Virus record (IMG/VR): IMGVR_UViG_2531839666_000014
From: a virus
Lineage: Duplodnaviria > Heunggongvirae > Uroviricota > Caudoviricetes
Strand: one strand, 5' to 3'
DNA length: 64,000 nucleotides
The position numbers were made by a program. Shown here one piece after another: positions 45,001 through 51,000 of the stretch. Position 1 is the stretch's first letter, and every line of letters begins with the position of its first letter.

Positions 45001-48000
45001 CGGCTCAGCGCACGCGGAACAGTTAAACCGACAGGATGTCACGGAAAGTCATCGTCCCCTGACCCGGCGTTAATTGTTAACTGGTTAACGTCACCTGGAG
45101 GCACCAGGCACCGCATCAACAAAGTTCATTTGTGAAAATGGAGATAATTATGATTGCTCATCACTTCAGAACTGATGAAATACCACGTCAGTGCGTGACA
45201 CCTGGCGATTATGTTCTTCATGAAGGGCGGACATATATCGCTTCAGCAAACAATATTGAAAAGAGAAAACTCTATATTCGTAACTTCACGACAAAAACAT
45301 GCATTACCGATTGCATGATTAAAGTCTTCCTCGGACGTGATGGTTTACCTGTAAAAGCGGAGTCATGGTGATAAATGTAAAAATAAAATGTGCCTACCAT
45401 CTCTGCAATAAGGAAACCGAACAAACCAAATCCGTTAAAAGTCATCTTCATTTTATGAAAGGCACAATCCCCGTAACCGAAGAGCGGCAATATTGCAGTA
45501 AGCAATGCGCCGAAAATGACCAGATGGCACATGAACTCTAACCCCTCAACTTGATATTCAGACAATTCAGTTTCATGCCAGATATAACAGCACCATAGGC
45601 CTTAAAAAAGGACATATAAAGTGAAAGAACTTAATCCTGACCAAATCTTTTCTGAAACCGAAAAGACAGCAGTAAATGAACTTAATGAAATTGCAAACCG
45701 CATCAGTAAAATATGCAAAGAATACAAAATCGACTTTGTATTTTCTTTTTCAGTGCTTACAGAAGTTGGAAATAACGAATATAAAGACAGTCGTTTGGTT
45801 TCATGTGGGTTAAATGGCAAAACACCAAGCCCATATATTCATGCCGCATGTGAAGTCGTCAGAAGCAACATTGAAGCACAACAAATCCATGAACTGGCGC
45901 TGGCTCTTGAGTTTGCAAGAGAAAATCCTGAGTGCGACTGCCCCGAATGCCAGCACGAAAAGGAAAAAACAACTAACAAAACAGCAAACCAGGCAACCTT
46001 CCACTGAAATAAAAATCCGGCAGCGCAGGCTACCGGATTTCTCCCTGCGTCACCGTATTCGGAGAAATCAGACAAAGGGCCGCTAATTCTAATCCAGCCA
46101 GAGGTTTAAATACAATGAGTGCTGATAAACAGACTTTTGCACTACACTGCGAAGCAAAAAACGATAAAGTCAGAAAACGCCTTGACATCAAAGGCGGTTT
46201 TTTCTGGACCGAGGCCAGAAAACTTTCTGTCGCAGTTTCCCGCTGCATTGCAGCCATGGACGATGCAGGCTACGACGAGGATGATTTCAAAAAACCCGTT
46301 CGCGTAAATTTCCCCGTCGTGAATGACCTTCCACCGGAAGGCGTGTTTGATACTGAATTCTGCAACCGCTATGAAAAAGGCGGTAACGATGGCATCACCA
46401 TGATGGCTATCCCCTTCGATGACAACATCAACGGTGAAGATGCCACAACTGCTGGCGATGACAACGATAACCTGGACGGAACTATTCCGGATGATGTGGA
46501 GAAAAGCGAATCCCCGGACAGCGACGATGACTGTTCTGAGTGTGAAATTCCCGTCGCCACTCTGAGCCTTACTCATCGCTTCCTTCACCTCTTCTTATTC
46601 AGCAAAGATGAAGATGGAAAATACCGGCATCATGCCACACCAGAACAACGCAATAACGTGATCCGTATGGAGATGGACACAGAGGACAGTTACCTTCAGA
46701 GCCTGCTTACTGCTGTGCGCGCCGCGCATCATGAACTGGATAAACTGACGAACCATCACCTTAGTCGCCTAGCTGAATCTGTAGGGAAAGCATTCCCCCA
46801 CTCTGCAAATCATCGCATCAGCCCGGCTGAATTCGACAAGTTCATCTCCACCTGGATGAAAACAGACTATGTGGATCAGGGATTGCTGGCAAAAGAATGG
46901 CAGAAAGGAAATTATGTTACAGGCATCACTCGTACGCCTTCCGGTGCTAACGCTGGCGGCGGAAATCTTACCGATCGTGGCGAAGGCTTTACCCACAATC
47001 AGGCATCACTGGCGCGAGACATTGCCACTGGCGTTCTGGCCCGTTCAATGGATGTGGATATTTATAACCTGCACCCAGCACACGCAAAACGCGTTGAAGA
47101 AATCGTGTCAGAGAATAAGCCGCCCTTTTCTGTTTTCCGTGACAAATTCATCGCCATGCCCGGTGGGCTGGATTATTCCCGCGCCATTGTGGTGGCTTCA
47201 GTGAAAGAAGCACCAATCGGCATTGAGGCTATCCCGGCGCGCGTGACTGAATATCTCAACAAAGTGTTGACCGAAACCGATCACTCTAACCCGGATCCGG
47301 AAATCGTGGAAATCGCCTGCGGTCGCTCATCAGCCCCAATGCCGCAGCGCGGAACAGCAGAAGAGATACATGACGATGAAGAAAAGCAGCAAACATCGGA
47401 CGCAATGTCTAATGAACAGGCAGCGCCTGAATCAGTGGAAGAAATTCCAGTTAAACATAATGCGGACACGCAATCACTGGAAAATGTCTCATCTGTAGAA
47501 ACGAAATACCAGGAACTGAGAGCAGAACTCCATGAAGCCAGGAAAAACATTTCGCCCAAAAATCCTGTCGATGCAGACAAATTGCTGGCTGCCTCTCGTG
47601 GGGAGTTCGTTGAAGGCATCAGCGCCCCAACCGACCCGAAGTGGATTAAGGGGATCCAGGCTCGCGACACTGAGGACCAGAATCAGTCCAAAGTGGAACA
47701 AATTGCCCCAGAAGCGGGACAAAACAGCCCGGATACGCAACAAAACGGGCCAGAAGAGCAACAGCCAGCCCCAGTAGCGCAACCGGAGCTGGAAAAAAAC
47801 TGCCGCGTCTGTGGTCAGACTGGCGGGGGTAACTGCCCTGACTGTAGTGCGGTAATGGGCGATAGCACTTACACAGAAACTTTTGGAGAAAATGACGCCG
47901 CTGATGGAGAAGACTCAGCACAAACTGAGGAGAAGATCATTCAGGAAAACTCTGTTGATGCCGCTCAGGAGGGCGAAACCGTTGTTCAGAACGAGCCAGG

Positions 48001-51000
48001 CAGTGATACGTCCGGCGATGACGCCAATTCTGAGCCAGTAACTCTCGACTGGAAAAGACAGCTCGTGATTGCCGCCGTCTATGGTTTGTGCGCCAACCCC
48101 GCATGTATAGCCACAGCGCCAGCAATCCCTGATATCGCCATCATGATTGCCAACAGGCTTGAAAATTTCGGAGGTGATAAATCATGAATGCCTGGCTTAT
48201 CCCCGATCGCATTGAAGAGCAGTCATGGGCACGACACTACCAGCAAATTGCCCGTGAAGAAACTGAAGCTGAGCTGGCAGACGACCTGGAAAAAGGTCTG
48301 CCCCAACACCTGTTTGAATCGCTATGCATCGATAATCTGCAACGTCACGGGGCCAGCAAAAAAGCTATTTCCCGTGCATTTGATGACGATGTCGATTTTC
48401 AGGAACGCATGGCAGAACACATCCGCTACATGGCTGAAACCATCGCCCGTCACCAAATTAATATTGATTCAGAGGTATAAAACGGATGAGTACAGCACTC
48501 GCAACGCTGGCAGGGAAGCTGGCTGAACGTGTCGGCATGGATTCTGTCGACCCACAGGAACTAATCACCACTCTTCGCCAGACGGCATTTAAAGGTGATG
48601 CCAGCGATGCGCAATTTATCGCATTGTTGATCGTCGCCAACCAGTACGGCCTTAATCCCTGGACGAAAGAAATTTACGCCTTCCCTGACAAGCAGAACGG
48701 CATCGTTCCGGTGGTTGGCGTTGATGGCTGGTCCCGCATTATCAATGAAAACCAGCAGTTTGATGGCATGGACTTTGAGCAGGACAATGAGTCCTGTACA
48801 TGCCGGATTTACCGCAAAGATCGCAATCACCCGATCTGCGTTACCGAGTGGATGGATGAATGTCGCCGCGCACCATTCAAAACCCGCGAAGGCAGAGAAA
48901 TCACCGGACCGTGGCAGTCGCATCCCAAACGGATGTTACGGCACAAAGCCATGATTCAGTGTGCTCGCCTGGCCTTCGGATTTGCTGGCATCTATGACAA
49001 GGATGAAGCCGAGCGTATTGTCGAAAATACCGCATATACTACAGAACGTCAGCCGGAACGCGACATCACCCCGGTTAACGAAGAAACCATGTCGGAAATT
49101 AACGCCCTTCTTACTTCCATGGAAAAAACGTGGGATGACGACCTGTTGCCGCTCTGTTCCCAGATTTTTCGCCGCAACATTCGAGCGTCGTCAGAACTGT
49201 CCCAAGCCGAAGCAGAGAAGGCTCTTGGATTCCTTAAACAGAAAGCCACAGAGCATAAGGTGGCAGCATGACACCAGAAATTATCCTACAACGTACCGGG
49301 ATCGACGTGAGAGGTGTCGAGCAGGGAGATTATGCATGGCAAAAATTACGGCTCGGGGTCATCACAGCTTCAGAAGTTCACAACGTGATAGCAAAACCCC
49401 GCTCCGGAAAGAAATGGCCTGACATGAAAATGTCCTACTTCCACACTCTGCTGGCTGAGGTCTGCACGGGTGTGGCCCCGGAAGTTAACGCCAAAGCCCT
49501 GGCATGGGGAAAACAGTACGAGAACGACGCCAGAGCCCTGTTTGAGTTTACTTCCGGCGTGAATATTACTGAATCCCCGATCATCTATCGCGACGAAAGT
49601 ATGCGTACCGCCTGCTCTCCGGATGGATTATGCAGTGACGGCAACGGCCTTGAGCTGAAATGTCCGTTTACCTCCCGGGATTTCATGAAATTCCGGCTCG
49701 GTGGTTTCGAGGCCATAAAATCAGCTTACATGGCCCAGGTGCAATTCAGCATGTGGGTGACTCGAAAAGATGCCTGGTACTTCGCCAACTATGACCCGCG
49801 CATGAAGCGTGAAGGCCTGCATTATGTCGTGGTCGAGCGGGATGAAAAATACATGGCTGGTTTTGACGAGATGGTGCCGGAATTCATCGAAAAAATGGAC
49901 GAAGCACTGGCTGAAATTAGTTTTGTATTTGGGGAGCAATGGCGATAGCCAGTAACAATGAGGTTCTCATATATGAATATTTCATTTGAAAGTCATGGTT
50001 CGGCAGCAAGTGTTGTTATCACCAGTTCGCTATTCGAATGCCGAAAGCACCAGCATATCGTTGATGCACTGAAGTTCAAAGTACCGGAAATGACCGTCAC
50101 AACCCGGGGATGTTTCTGGATACGGACGACGTTAGCCACAACATACCTCACGGCACGCCGTGTTTATGATATGGCACACCAGGAATATAACCAGTGTTCG
50201 TCCTGATCCAGCGCGGGCAGTCTTTCGTCGATGCCAACAACTATCCGGTGGAAATCTGCAAGGTAACTCTTACTCAGGTGATCTACCGAAGACTCGACGG
50301 CAGAACCCGAGCCACTTCAATTGGTGCATTTAATGAAGAATTTGAGCGAGTCGACCACAACGAACTACACATGATTAAAGCGGAAATTGAGAAGGAAATG
50401 CATATTGCCAGCCTTCGAAAAATGCGACGTACATCAATCAACTGACAACCGCCTTCGGGCGGTTTTTAATGGCAAAAATATGGATTCACACAGTATCACC
50501 CTCAAAGAGGCCTGTCAGTTTCTCAAGATATCAAGGCCAACAGCTGTTAACTGGATACGAACGGGCCGACTACAGGCAACACGAAAAAATTCTTCCGGTA
50601 AAAGATCACCTTATCTCACAACCCGGCAAGCCTGCATTGCAGCACTTCATTCACCGCTGCATACTGTCCAGGTGAGCGCGGGTGATGGCATAACAGAGGA
50701 AAGAAAATGTCACTCTTCCGCAGAGGTGAAATATGGTACGCCTCGTACTCGCTCCCGGGCGGGAAGCGAATTAAGGAGTCTCTTGGCACAAAGGACAAGC
50801 GGCAAGCTCAGGAGTTGCACGACAAGCGAAAAGCAGAACTCTGGCGAGTAGACAAACTGGGGGATATGCCAGATGTCACTTTCGAAGAAGCCTGCCTGAG
50901 ATGGCTTGAGGAAAAGCCGACAAGAAATCCATCGATTCCGATAAATCCAGAATCGCATTCTGGATTGAGCATTTCGAGGGTATAAGGATTAAGGATATAT

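What the first reader, a model, noticed from the sequence alone, without database searches (positions are those of the whole stretch)
46115..48187. 690-aa uncharacterised acidic protein coupled to gam
The largest gene of the early-left operon has no recognisable catalytic motifs, several acidic low-complexity tracts and paired CxxC motifs near the C-terminus. It occupies the position where lambda carries kil, cIII and ea genes, a region often holding host-takeover or anti-defence functions.
Basis: inference. Interest (0 to 1): 0.45.

Follow-up and report, generated by a model that had tools for sequence, protein, structure and literature searches.

The report
Nuclease-less RecE relative beside lambda Red
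The 690-residue gene is real. It is a relative of the RecE recombination protein that keeps RecE's mysterious N-terminal 600 residues, has a short conserved tail where the nuclease should be, and is mislabelled "exonuclease VIII" in public records.

Summary
The ORF at 46115-48187 (+) is real. It encodes 690 aa with pI 4.6, has a CxxC pair at residues 563-577, and its stop codon overlaps the gam start (ATGA).

It does belong to a known family. Residues 58-601 align with residues 50-555 of Rac RecE (52% identity, about 90% in the core), and Pfam PF06630 matches. The PD-(D/E)XK nuclease domain of RecE (PF12684, PDB 3H4R) is absent. A disordered acidic linker and a 45-residue two-helix tail take its place.

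Public records call the protein "exodeoxyribonuclease VIII". Nothing in the sequence or the model supports that name. A 2025 paper mentions such "RecE-2" proteins in one sentence and says their roles are unknown.

What I add:
- The RecE N-terminal platform carries one of three alternative C-termini: a 5'-3' nuclease, a DnaQ-like 3'-5' nuclease, or this tail.
- The tail is the best-conserved part of the tail-type proteins (dN/dS 0.07).
- The tail resembles stand-alone phage proteins of about 70 aa (phrog_2201).
- The platform's helical core has no solved structural relative.

The best reading is a non-catalytic accessory protein of the recombination module. This is a new member of a known but unexplained kind, and interest is moderate.

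The parts
46115..48187 (+). Complete ORF of 690 aa plus stop: a nuclease-less RecE relative ('RecE-2' type)
46115..46429 (+). Residues 1-105: N-terminal alpha/beta domain. Its second half and the following segment match Pfam PF06630 (residues 55-197).
   Evidence: AF2 pLDDT 83 for the first ten residues and 94-98 for the rest; PF06630; dN/dS 0.25
46430..46546 (+). Residues 106-144: acidic, disordered linker 1, with the CSEC motif at residues 140-143
   Evidence: pLDDT 42-57; composition; length and sequence vary among homologues
46547..47350 (+). Residues 145-412: all-helical core domain, the most conserved folded part of the RecE N-terminal platform (motifs [19 protein letters not shown] and PGGLDYSRA)
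47351..47482 (+). Residues 413-456: acidic, disordered linker 2
   Evidence: pLDDT 40-50; dN/dS about 0.9
47600..47644 (+). Residues 496-510, [15 protein letters not shown]: a short linear motif conserved in an otherwise poorly ordered region. It follows a helix at residues 458-477.
   Evidence: The motif G[ED][FY][VI].[GE][IVL]S.P.D.KW occurs in Rac RecE at residues 464-478 and in 29 of 86 diverse representatives, including tail-type and nuclease-fused members
47801..47845 (+).
   Evidence: Rac RecE has CNACGQTGGDNCPDC. Present in 108 of 113 close homologues but only 6 of 86 diverse representatives, so it is optional in the family.
47846..48043 (+). Residues 578-643: acidic, disordered linker 3, at the point where RecE's linker leads into the nuclease domain
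   Evidence: pLDDT below 50; dN/dS about 0.6
48044..48184 (+). Residues 644-690: conserved C-terminal two-helix tail ([38 protein letters not shown]...), which takes the place of the nuclease domain
   Evidence: Invariant L650, A653, A654, G657, C659, N661 and P662 across 20 proteins of 21-65% identity; dN/dS 0.07; helices at 646-660 and 672-683; related to phrog_2201 and phrog_26058
48184..48480 (+). gam (98 aa); its ATG overlaps the stop codon of the ORF
   Evidence: PF06064 E=5e-65; ATGA overlap
48486..49271 (+). bet, the single-strand annealing protein of the same operon
49268..49948 (+). exo, the lambda-type 5'-3' exonuclease and the only nuclease of this recombination module
45132..46007 (+). 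Upstream genes: kil homologue (45132-45371), ydaE-like zinc protein (45365-45541), and an unassigned 128-aa ORF (45621-46007) in the slot that racC holds in Rac

Best explanation
SHOWN. The gene encodes a nuclease-less paralogue of RecE. It keeps the whole RecE N-terminal platform: an alpha/beta domain, a helical core, the conserved GEFV.GIS.P.DPKW motif and the four-cysteine motif. At the exact boundary where RecE's PD-(D/E)XK exonuclease domain begins, it continues instead with a disordered acidic linker and a strongly conserved two-helix tail of about 45 residues. It lies in the early-left (pL-side) gene row and is translationally coupled to gam, which is followed by bet and exo. It is under purifying selection.

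INFERRED. It is not an exonuclease. It is a non-catalytic accessory or scaffold protein of the phage recombination module. It probably does as a separate polypeptide what the N-terminal 600 residues do inside full-length RecE. That region is reported to enhance recombination between two linear DNA molecules and is dispensable for nuclease activity. In this phage the 5'-3' resection is supplied in trans by Exo.

The folded platform would provide the still undefined activity, such as binding DNA ends or a partner. The flexible acidic linkers would act as tethers. The conserved linear motif and the tail would be docking sites for partners, either phage Red proteins or a host factor.

The identity and the lack of a nuclease are near certain. 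The accessory role in recombination is the most likely function but is not demonstrated. The partner of the tail is unknown.
For: Identity: BLASTP against Rac RecE gives E=2e-177 over query residues 58-601 and RecE residues 50-555. PF06630, phrog_607 and PRK09709 all match, and only profile positions 1-598 of 877 or 1-618 of 883 are covered.

No nuclease: Rac RecE matches PF12684 at residues 615-850 and PDB 3H4R at 605-866, and the window protein matches neither. The AF2 model shows only two short helices after residue 578. The PRK09709 score of 735 is below its cut-off of 1269.

Boundary: homologue P0118 keeps a Rac-like linker, by eye to about RecE residue 585, and then switches to the tail.

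Selection: dN/dS is 0.13-0.18 for the core, 0.07 for the tail and 0.6-0.9 for the linkers.

Not a one-off truncation: more than 100 clusters of 663-700 aa share this architecture. Among 85 representatives at 50% clustering that carry the core, 23 end in the tail, 21 in the PD-(D/E)XK domain and 14 in a DnaQ-like exonuclease. One is fused to RecT. The platform is therefore repeatedly joined to DNA-end-processing and recombination domains.

Context: the stop codon overlaps the gam start. About 26 IMG/VR loci of 55-100% identity show tail-type, then gam, bet, exo, and two more show gam alone. The PD-(D/E)XK types of 877-915 aa are followed by recT. In the 58%-identity lineage the tail (84% identical) is better conserved than the core (70-73%).

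[quoted passage not shown] 'RecE-2' proteins lacking a nuclease domain are noted in lambdoid Rec modules, with roles not known (PMC12315714).

Against: Eight distant tail-type homologues in Buttiauxella, Citrobacter, Lelliottia and Cedecea prophages have no relative of lambda Gam, Bet or Exo or of Rac RecT within the fetched flanks of about 1-7 kb. Where the flank reaches far enough, they sit just before xis and int. The protein therefore cannot depend on lambda Red in general and may act on the host.

The tight tail/gam-bet-exo linkage in E. coli could simply reflect shared ancestry of a mosaic block.

I could not read Fu et al. 2012. From memory only, the RecE N-terminal region supplied in trans gave little benefit there; I could not verify this.
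Confidence: 0.5

Rival explanations
1. Split RecE. The C-terminal tail (and/or the GEFV.GIS.P.DPKW motif) docks the platform specifically onto the separately encoded lambda-type Exo, Bet or Gam. Platform plus Exo would then be the non-covalent equivalent of full-length RecE. This is a sharper version of the best explanation.
For: The tail replaces the nuclease exactly at the domain boundary. Across about 26 loci and two diverged lineages, tail-type proteins are linked to gam-bet-exo and PD-(D/E)XK types of 877-915 aa to recT. The gene is translationally coupled to gam. The tail is the best-conserved segment in the 58%-identity lineage, about as conserved as Gam.
Against: The same tail ends distant homologues in prophages that have no relative of gam, bet, exo or recT within the fetched flanks. 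It also occurs as stand-alone phage proteins of about 70 aa (phrog_2201) in unrelated phages. A Red-specific docking role therefore cannot be its general function. No complex prediction could be run.
Confidence: 0.2
2. Host-directed takeover or anti-defence protein. The platform and tail would bind and neutralise or redirect a host protein such as RecBCD, another nuclease, SSB or a defence system. The fusion to nucleases in RecE would then be secondary.
For: The gene sits among early-left genes such as kil and gam. Distant tail-type and DnaQ-type relatives are the only large early-left gene seen in prophages with no recognisable Gam, Bet, Exo or RecT relative in the fetched flanks, which fits action on host machinery. 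The protein is acidic and has long disordered regions. The tail module is widespread in small phage proteins of unknown function.
Against: The acidic tracts are the least conserved parts (dN/dS 0.6-0.9, variable length), unlike the structured acidic surfaces of DNA mimics. There are no PADLOC or Pfam hits to defence or counter-defence families; PADLOC holds defence models, not anti-defence ones. The repeated fusions to two exonuclease types and to RecT point to DNA-end transactions. This phage already encodes Gam against RecBCD.
Confidence: 0.2
3. Functionless remnant. A recombination event that swapped the nuclease-plus-recT end of a Rac-type module for gam-bet-exo left a truncated recE that is merely still open.
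For: The gene is visibly mosaic. DNA similarity to Rac recE covers only nt 772-1650 of the gene, and the first 289 nt resemble other 'exonuclease VIII' genes. Some E. coli copies are interrupted or partial (H36; P0098, P0109 and P0114-P0116; L035).
Against: dN/dS is 0.07-0.29 in the folded parts and the tail against 0.6-0.9 in the linkers. The reading frame is intact in more than 100 sequence clusters. The tail is invariant at seven positions in relatives as distant as 21% identity. The tail type is as common as the nuclease types among diverse representatives.
Confidence: 0.03
4. It is what the databases say: an exodeoxyribonuclease VIII (a RecE exonuclease).
For: Public names in GenBank, RefSeq and PHROGs.
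Against: There is no PD-(D/E)XK domain by Pfam, by PDB sequence search or in the AF2 model. The NCBIfam equivalog score is below its cut-off and covers only profile positions 1-598 of 877. The names were evidently transferred from the N-terminal match.
Confidence: 0.02

Closest known systems
RecE (exonuclease VIII) of the Rac prophage, E. coli K-12 (866 aa; nuclease domain in PDB 3H4R)
   Same: It shares the N-terminal alpha/beta domain (PF06630), the helical core (about 90% identity over roughly 170 residues), the GEFV.GISDP.DPKW motif and the CxxC...CxxC motif. It holds the same position in the gene row, after kil and the ydaE-like gene.
   Different: It lacks the C-terminal PD-(D/E)XK exonuclease domain (RecE 605-866) and has a 45-residue conserved tail instead. 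It is followed by gam-bet-exo rather than recT.
'RecE-2' proteins of lambdoid recombination modules (Genome Res 2025, PMC12315714)
   Same: Both are relatives of Rac and Gifsy-1 RecE that lack a nuclease domain by structure prediction, are encoded in the early-left operon, and have roles stated as not known. This protein fits that description.
   Different: The paper gives one sentence and no anatomy. I could not check which phages it listed because no supplement is held. The tail, the linear motif, the three-way C-terminal exchange and the selection pattern are described here, not there.
RecE-platform proteins fused to a DnaQ-like 3'-5' exonuclease (PF16473, Rv2179c-like), e.g. P0123, P0146, P0160
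   Same: They have the same N-terminal domain and core, and some have the same linear motif (P0123, P0160).
   Different: Their C-terminus is a 3'-5' exonuclease domain. In the one locus examined downstream (L068) the gene is followed directly by xis and int.
phrog_2201 small phage proteins (about 70 aa, 'FAMAAMQGLCANP...') and phrog_26058
   Same: The C-terminal tail shares the AA.QGLCANP helix-turn-helix-like signature. Stand-alone proteins P0289-P0298 match both the tail profile (E=1.6e-4 to 5.8e-3) and phrog_2201.
   Different: These are independent small proteins from unrelated phages, with no RecE platform. Their function is unknown, so the resemblance does not transfer a function.
P22 Abc1 and Arf (accessory proteins of a phage recombination module)
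   Same: This is a functional analogy only. They are non-essential helper proteins encoded inside a Rec module whose molecular roles are unknown (PMC12315714).
   Different: No sequence or structural relationship was tested or is claimed.

Membership tests
RecE / exodeoxyribonuclease VIII (functional enzyme) | C-terminal PD-(D/E)XK 5'-3' exonuclease domain (PF12684; RecE 605-866, PDB 3H4R) | tested here: not met
   There is no PF12684 hit and no PDB hit, whereas Rac RecE gives both. A local iterated nuclease HMM is negative on tail-type proteins. AF2 shows no folded domain after residue 578 apart from two short helices.
RecE / exodeoxyribonuclease VIII (functional enzyme) | Reaches the NCBIfam equivalog cut-off (NF007259 PRK09709, 1269 bits) | tested here: not met
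   The score is 735.4 bits and covers profile positions 1-598 of 877 only.
RecE / exodeoxyribonuclease VIII (functional enzyme) | Partnered with an adjacent recT gene | tested here: not met
   The downstream genes are gam, bet and exo. recT follows the PD-(D/E)XK types of 877-915 aa instead.
RecE N-terminal region family (Pfam PF06630 Exonuc_VIII; sequence homology only) | Significant match above the Pfam gathering score, and homology of the core to RecE | tested here: met
   PF06630 scores 47.6 bits against a cut-off of 25. BLASTP against Rac RecE gives E=2e-177. phrog_607 gives E=9e-257.
'RecE-2' nuclease-less RecE relatives (PMC12315714) | Related to RecE, lacks a nuclease domain in a structure prediction, and is encoded in a lambdoid early-left or Rec module | tested here: met
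   Whether the authors' own list contains this protein could not be checked.
Lambda Red recombination module (as an additional component) | Encoded in the same gene row and orientation as gam-bet-exo, and coupled to them | tested here: met
   The stop codon overlaps the gam start and no promoter-like site lies between the genes. The arrangement is conserved in about 26 loci.
Lambda Red recombination module (as an additional component) | Physical or functional interaction with Exo, Bet or Gam | not testable with these tools
   No complex prediction or experiment was available. Distant homologues occur without Red genes in the fetched flanks, so an interaction is not a family-wide requirement.
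Anti-defence or DNA-mimic proteins | Match to a known counter-defence family, or a conserved structured acidic surface | tested here: inconclusive
   There are no hits in Pfam, PHROGs functional categories, PADLOC or PDB. The acidic tracts are disordered and poorly conserved. No dedicated anti-defence library was available.

The most novel reading that the evidence does not exclude
The RecE N-terminal platform is an autonomous, portable module that exchanges its C-terminal effector: a 5'-3' nuclease, a 3'-5' nuclease, or a docking tail related to phrog_2201 small proteins. In the tail form it recruits a nuclease or recombination partner in trans. If so, this natural stand-alone version would give lambda Red the efficient linear-linear recombination that is now reported only for full-length RecE/RecT. 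It would also finally give a handle on what the RecE N-terminus does.
Probability: 0.2. Interest if true: 0.65.

Novelty: new member of a known kind. Interest (0 to 1): 0.4.

Why it matters
The function of the first 600 or so residues of RecE is still described as unknown or unclear in 2023 reviews, although that region is what makes full-length RecE/RecT useful for direct cloning through linear-linear recombination. This gene is that region made by nature as a separate, selected protein next to lambda Red. The question therefore becomes directly testable: add the gene to a gam-bet-exo plasmid and measure linear-linear recombination, or pull the protein down and see what the conserved tail and linear motif bind.

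There is also a practical point. The gene is named "exodeoxyribonuclease VIII" or "RecE family exodeoxyribonuclease" in every public record and sequence cluster seen here, more than 100 clusters in all, although it has no nuclease domain. That name should not be used to infer recombination capacity of Stx and other lambdoid prophages.

Tried and rejected
1. The tail as a Red-specific docking peptide. Eight distant tail-type loci have no relative of gam, bet, exo or recT in the fetched flanks, and the motif also occurs in stand-alone small phage proteins. I kept it only as a lower-probability rival.
2. The tail as a membrane anchor. The maximum Kyte-Doolittle 19-residue score is 1.75 in this protein but only about 0.5-1.3 in 18 of 20 family members. 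The consensus is amphipathic and rich in Q and D. Rejected.
3. The acidic tracts as a DNA mimic. They are disordered, variable in length and weakly constrained. Not supported.
5. Defence-system membership. PADLOC was negative.
6. The search for related loci with the broad alignment A1 failed because it had no conserved stretch. I repeated it with A2.
7. Literature. Fu et al. 2012 is not held, and the supplements of PMC12315714 are not held. The first literature query was swamped by 'receptor'.
8. My first coordinate transfer from PQ600364 to the window was wrong upstream of 43379, because the immunity region differs. I corrected it by BLAST and by reading the ORFs directly.

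
Full report
**1. The observation**

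The ORF 46115-48187 (+) exists as described. It runs from an ATG to a stop and encodes 690 aa. The protein has pI 4.58, with 124 D+E against 66 K+R. Acidic residues are concentrated at residues 91-150, 411-450 and 581-640. CxxC motifs lie at 563-566 and 574-577, and another (CSEC) at 140-143. The stop codon overlaps the ATG of the next gene (..TCATGAATG..), and a GGAGGTG ribosome-binding site sits inside the last codons. That next gene is Gam (PF06064, E=5e-65), followed by bet and exo.

The window is a lambdoid Stx1 prophage. It is collinear with Escherichia phage phiSTEC1589-Stx1c (PQ600364) except for the immunity region at 40551-43378. The gene is 100% identical in that phage and in several E. 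coli chromosomes.

**2. What it is**

The protein is not an orphan.
- Pfam PF06630 (Exonuc_VIII) matches residues 55-197 (E=2e-12).
- phrog_607 matches residues 1-688 to profile positions 1-618 of 883 (E=9e-257).
- NCBIfam PRK09709 (exodeoxyribonuclease VIII) matches residues 1-637 to positions 1-598 of 877. Its score of 735 bits is below the equivalog cut-off of 1269.

I fetched Rac recE from E. coli K-12. BLASTP aligns query residues 58-601 with RecE residues 50-555 at 52% identity (E=2e-177). Identity is about 90% through the segment [18 protein letters not shown]...[23 protein letters not shown]. The alignment is also close through the helix, the GEFV.GIS.P.DPKW motif and the four-cysteine motif.

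What is missing is the enzyme. Rac RecE matches PF12684 (a PD-(D/E)XK-like domain) at residues 615-850 and the crystal structure 3H4R at 605-866. The window protein matches neither.

**3. Structure prediction**

An AlphaFold2 model built on 99 family sequences gives two confident folded parts. One is an alpha/beta domain at residues 1-105. The other is an all-helical core at residues 145-412, with block-mean pLDDT of 87-98. The core modelled alone has pLDDT 94.6 and pTM 0.85.

Outside these parts the model shows:
- disordered stretches within 107-136, 428-456 and 512-558, and all of 578-643;
- a helix at 458-477;
- a weakly modelled zinc-ribbon region;
- two short C-terminal helices at 646-660 and 672-683.

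There is no room for a nuclease fold. The public names 'exodeoxyribonuclease VIII' and 'RecE family exodeoxyribonuclease' were evidently transferred from the N-terminal match. Nothing in the sequence or the model supports them.

**4. Not a broken recE**

Four lines of evidence show the gene is a maintained form rather than a remnant.

*Frequency.* The close search returned more than 100 clusters (at 90% clustering) of 663-700 aa, 77-100% identical to the window protein. All carry PF06630 only.

*Selection.* I compared the window gene with the copies in Shigella phage POCJ13 and in an E. coli O104:H4 prophage. dN/dS is 0.13-0.18 in the core, 0.13-0.29 in the helix and zinc region, 0.25 in the N-domain, 0.07 in the tail, and 0.6-0.9 in the acidic linkers.

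*Family census.* An exhaustive HMMER search of 1.84 billion cluster representatives found only 206 relatives at E<=0.001, so the family is narrow. All named sources and fetched loci are Enterobacterales. Among the 85 representatives of at least 400 aa that carry the core, the C-termini divide as follows:

| C-terminus | Representatives |
|---|---|
| RecE-type PD-(D/E)XK domain | 21 |
| DnaQ-like 3'-5' exonuclease (PF16473) | 14 |
| Same short tail as the window protein | 23 |
| Nothing recognised | 27 (one is a RecE-N::RecT fusion) |

*The tail itself.* In an alignment of 20 tail-type proteins that are only 21-65% identical to the window protein, the tail is the best-conserved region. Its consensus is LTY.QQLTIAALQGLCANPAY.G..DDIP.MA..LA. 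L650, A653, A654, G657, C659, N661 and P662 are invariant. Homologue P0118 keeps a Rac-like linker, by eye to about RecE residue 585, and then switches to the tail. The tail therefore replaces the nuclease at the domain boundary.

A profile of the tail also finds stand-alone phage proteins of about 70 aa ('FAMAAMQGLCANP...'). These belong to phrog_2201, whose function is unknown. The distant tail-type proteins belong to phrog_26058, also of unknown function.

**5. Context**

In Rac the order is kilR-ydaE-racC-recE-recT. Here it is kil, a ydaE-like gene, a 128-aa ORF, this gene, then gam-bet-exo. So the gene holds recE's place, and the recombination enzymes downstream are of the lambda type.

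In 80 IMG/VR loci:
- Tail-type genes of 55-100% identity are followed by gam, bet and exo in about 26 loci. Two more, one of them degraded, show gam alone.
- PD-(D/E)XK types of 877-915 aa are followed by recT.
- A PD-(D/E)XK type of 1048 aa (L060) is followed by a 350-aa ORF that looks like a divergent RecT by eye.
- The one DnaQ-type locus examined downstream (L068) is followed directly by xis and int.

In the 58%-identity lineage the tail (84% identical) is more conserved than the core (70-73%) and about as conserved as Gam (81%).

Eight distant tail-type genes from Buttiauxella, Citrobacter, Lelliottia and Cedecea prophages argue against a Red-specific role. They have no relative of gam, bet, exo or recT within the fetched flanks of about 1-7 kb. 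Where the flank reaches far enough, they sit just before xis and int.

**6. What could not be learned**

The core has a strikingly conserved glycine-rich loop (RT.SG..AGGGN.TDR), a D.D.Y segment (MDVDIYN) and the PG.LDYSRA motif. These could form a binding or even a catalytic site. I cannot say which.

A 15-residue motif, G[ED][FY]V.GISDP.DPKW, lies in an otherwise poorly ordered region. It occurs in the window protein at residues 496-510, in Rac RecE at 464-478, and in 29 of 86 diverse representatives that include tail-type and nuclease-fused members. It looks like a docking motif for a common partner.

**7. Literature**

Two 2023 reviews state that the function of the RecE N-terminal region is unknown or unclear. 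[quoted passage not shown] Both report that full-length RecE with RecT enhances linear-linear recombination (PMC11611040 and PMC11610958).

[quoted passage not shown] The same survey reports DnaQ-like nucleases in such modules (PMC12315714). The kind is therefore already noticed but not dissected.

**8. Most likely mechanism**

*Shown:* the homology, the absent nuclease, the domain anatomy, the selection pattern, the operon position and the coupling to gam.

*Inferred:* the protein is a non-catalytic accessory or scaffold component of the recombination module. The platform that is covalently attached to a nuclease in RecE and in the DnaQ-type relatives is made here as its own polypeptide. Flexible acidic tethers would connect it to two conserved docking elements, the linear motif and the tail. 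Resection would come from Exo in trans.

I put about 0.5 on this reading as a whole. Identity and lack of nuclease are above 0.9. A role in recombination is about 0.5-0.6. A specific partner is unknown.

The rivals are:
- a Red-specific 'split RecE' (0.2);
- a decaying remnant (0.03);
- a genuine exonuclease (0.02).

**9. Verdict**

This is a new member of a known but unexplained kind. The added value is the three-way C-terminal exchange, the conserved tail and its link to phrog_2201, and the misannotation.

Interest is moderate (0.4). The finding is not surprising to a specialist in lambdoid phages. It does offer a clean natural experiment on the old question of what the RecE N-terminus does.

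Noticed in passing
window 44931-44966 (+): A strong terminator-like hairpin (14-bp stem, 7 G-C pairs, followed by CTTTTTT) lies in the gap between the 126-aa ORF (ends 44511) and kil (starts 45132). It is probably a tL-type terminator read through under N antitermination.
   Followed up: no
window 47600-47644 (+), residues 496-510 of the ORF: The linear motif [15 protein letters not shown] is shared with Rac RecE (464-478) and with 29 of 86 diverse family representatives, including tail-type and nuclease-fused members. The sequence around it is poorly conserved. It is a candidate docking site for an unknown common partner.
   Followed up: partly
family members P0123, P0146, P0160 and others; loci L042-L046, L059, L064, L068: The RecE N-terminal platform also occurs fused to a DnaQ-like 3'-5' exonuclease (PF16473, Rv2179c-like). 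This applies to 14 of 85 representatives. In L068 the gene is followed directly by xis and int, with no annealing protein recognised.
   Followed up: partly
P0124 (703 aa): A single representative is a fusion of the RecE platform (PF06630 plus core) to a RecT domain (PF03837 at residues 528-678). It looks like a deletion joining recE to recT.
   Followed up: no
window 45132-45371 (+): The Kil homologue (an inhibitor of FtsZ) is annotated 'cell division protein FtsZ' in PQ600364 and in RefSeq. That names the target instead of the protein.
   Followed up: no
window 45621-46007 (+): A 128-aa ORF sits in the slot that racC holds in Rac and has no convincing family match. It travels with the closest tail-type genes (83-100% identity) but was not found in the 58%-identity lineage, which has a closer ydaE homologue in that region.
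   Followed up: no
window 40551-43378: The immunity region (cI-like repressor at 40995-41702, cro-like and cII-like ORFs, and arginine-rich N-like ORFs at 42311-43054) differs from that of phiSTEC1589-Stx1c, although the rest of the prophage is 99.5-99.9% identical. The immunity cassette has been swapped.
   Followed up: partly
window 29548-30784 (-): The Shiga toxin 1 genes are in the window: the A subunit at 29828-30784 (ORF as listed; the likely start is the MKIIIF methionine) and the B subunit at 29548-29817.
   Followed up: partly
window 51907-52305 (+), just beyond int (51009-51869): The prophage abuts a YnfG/DmsB-like iron-sulfur protein ORF. In E. coli O104:H4 the related prophage sits next to a ynfG copy that is annotated as missing its N-terminus, so ynfG is the integration site.
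   Followed up: no
loci L006, L012, L013, L060: A small ORF beginning MYK(I/V)TAT... lies downstream of the RecE-type gene in several distant prophages: two ORFs after it in L006 and L013, directly after it in L012, and after the RecT-like ORF in L060. From memory it resembles Rac RcbA/YdaC, the double-strand-break reduction protein. I did not test this.
   Followed up: no
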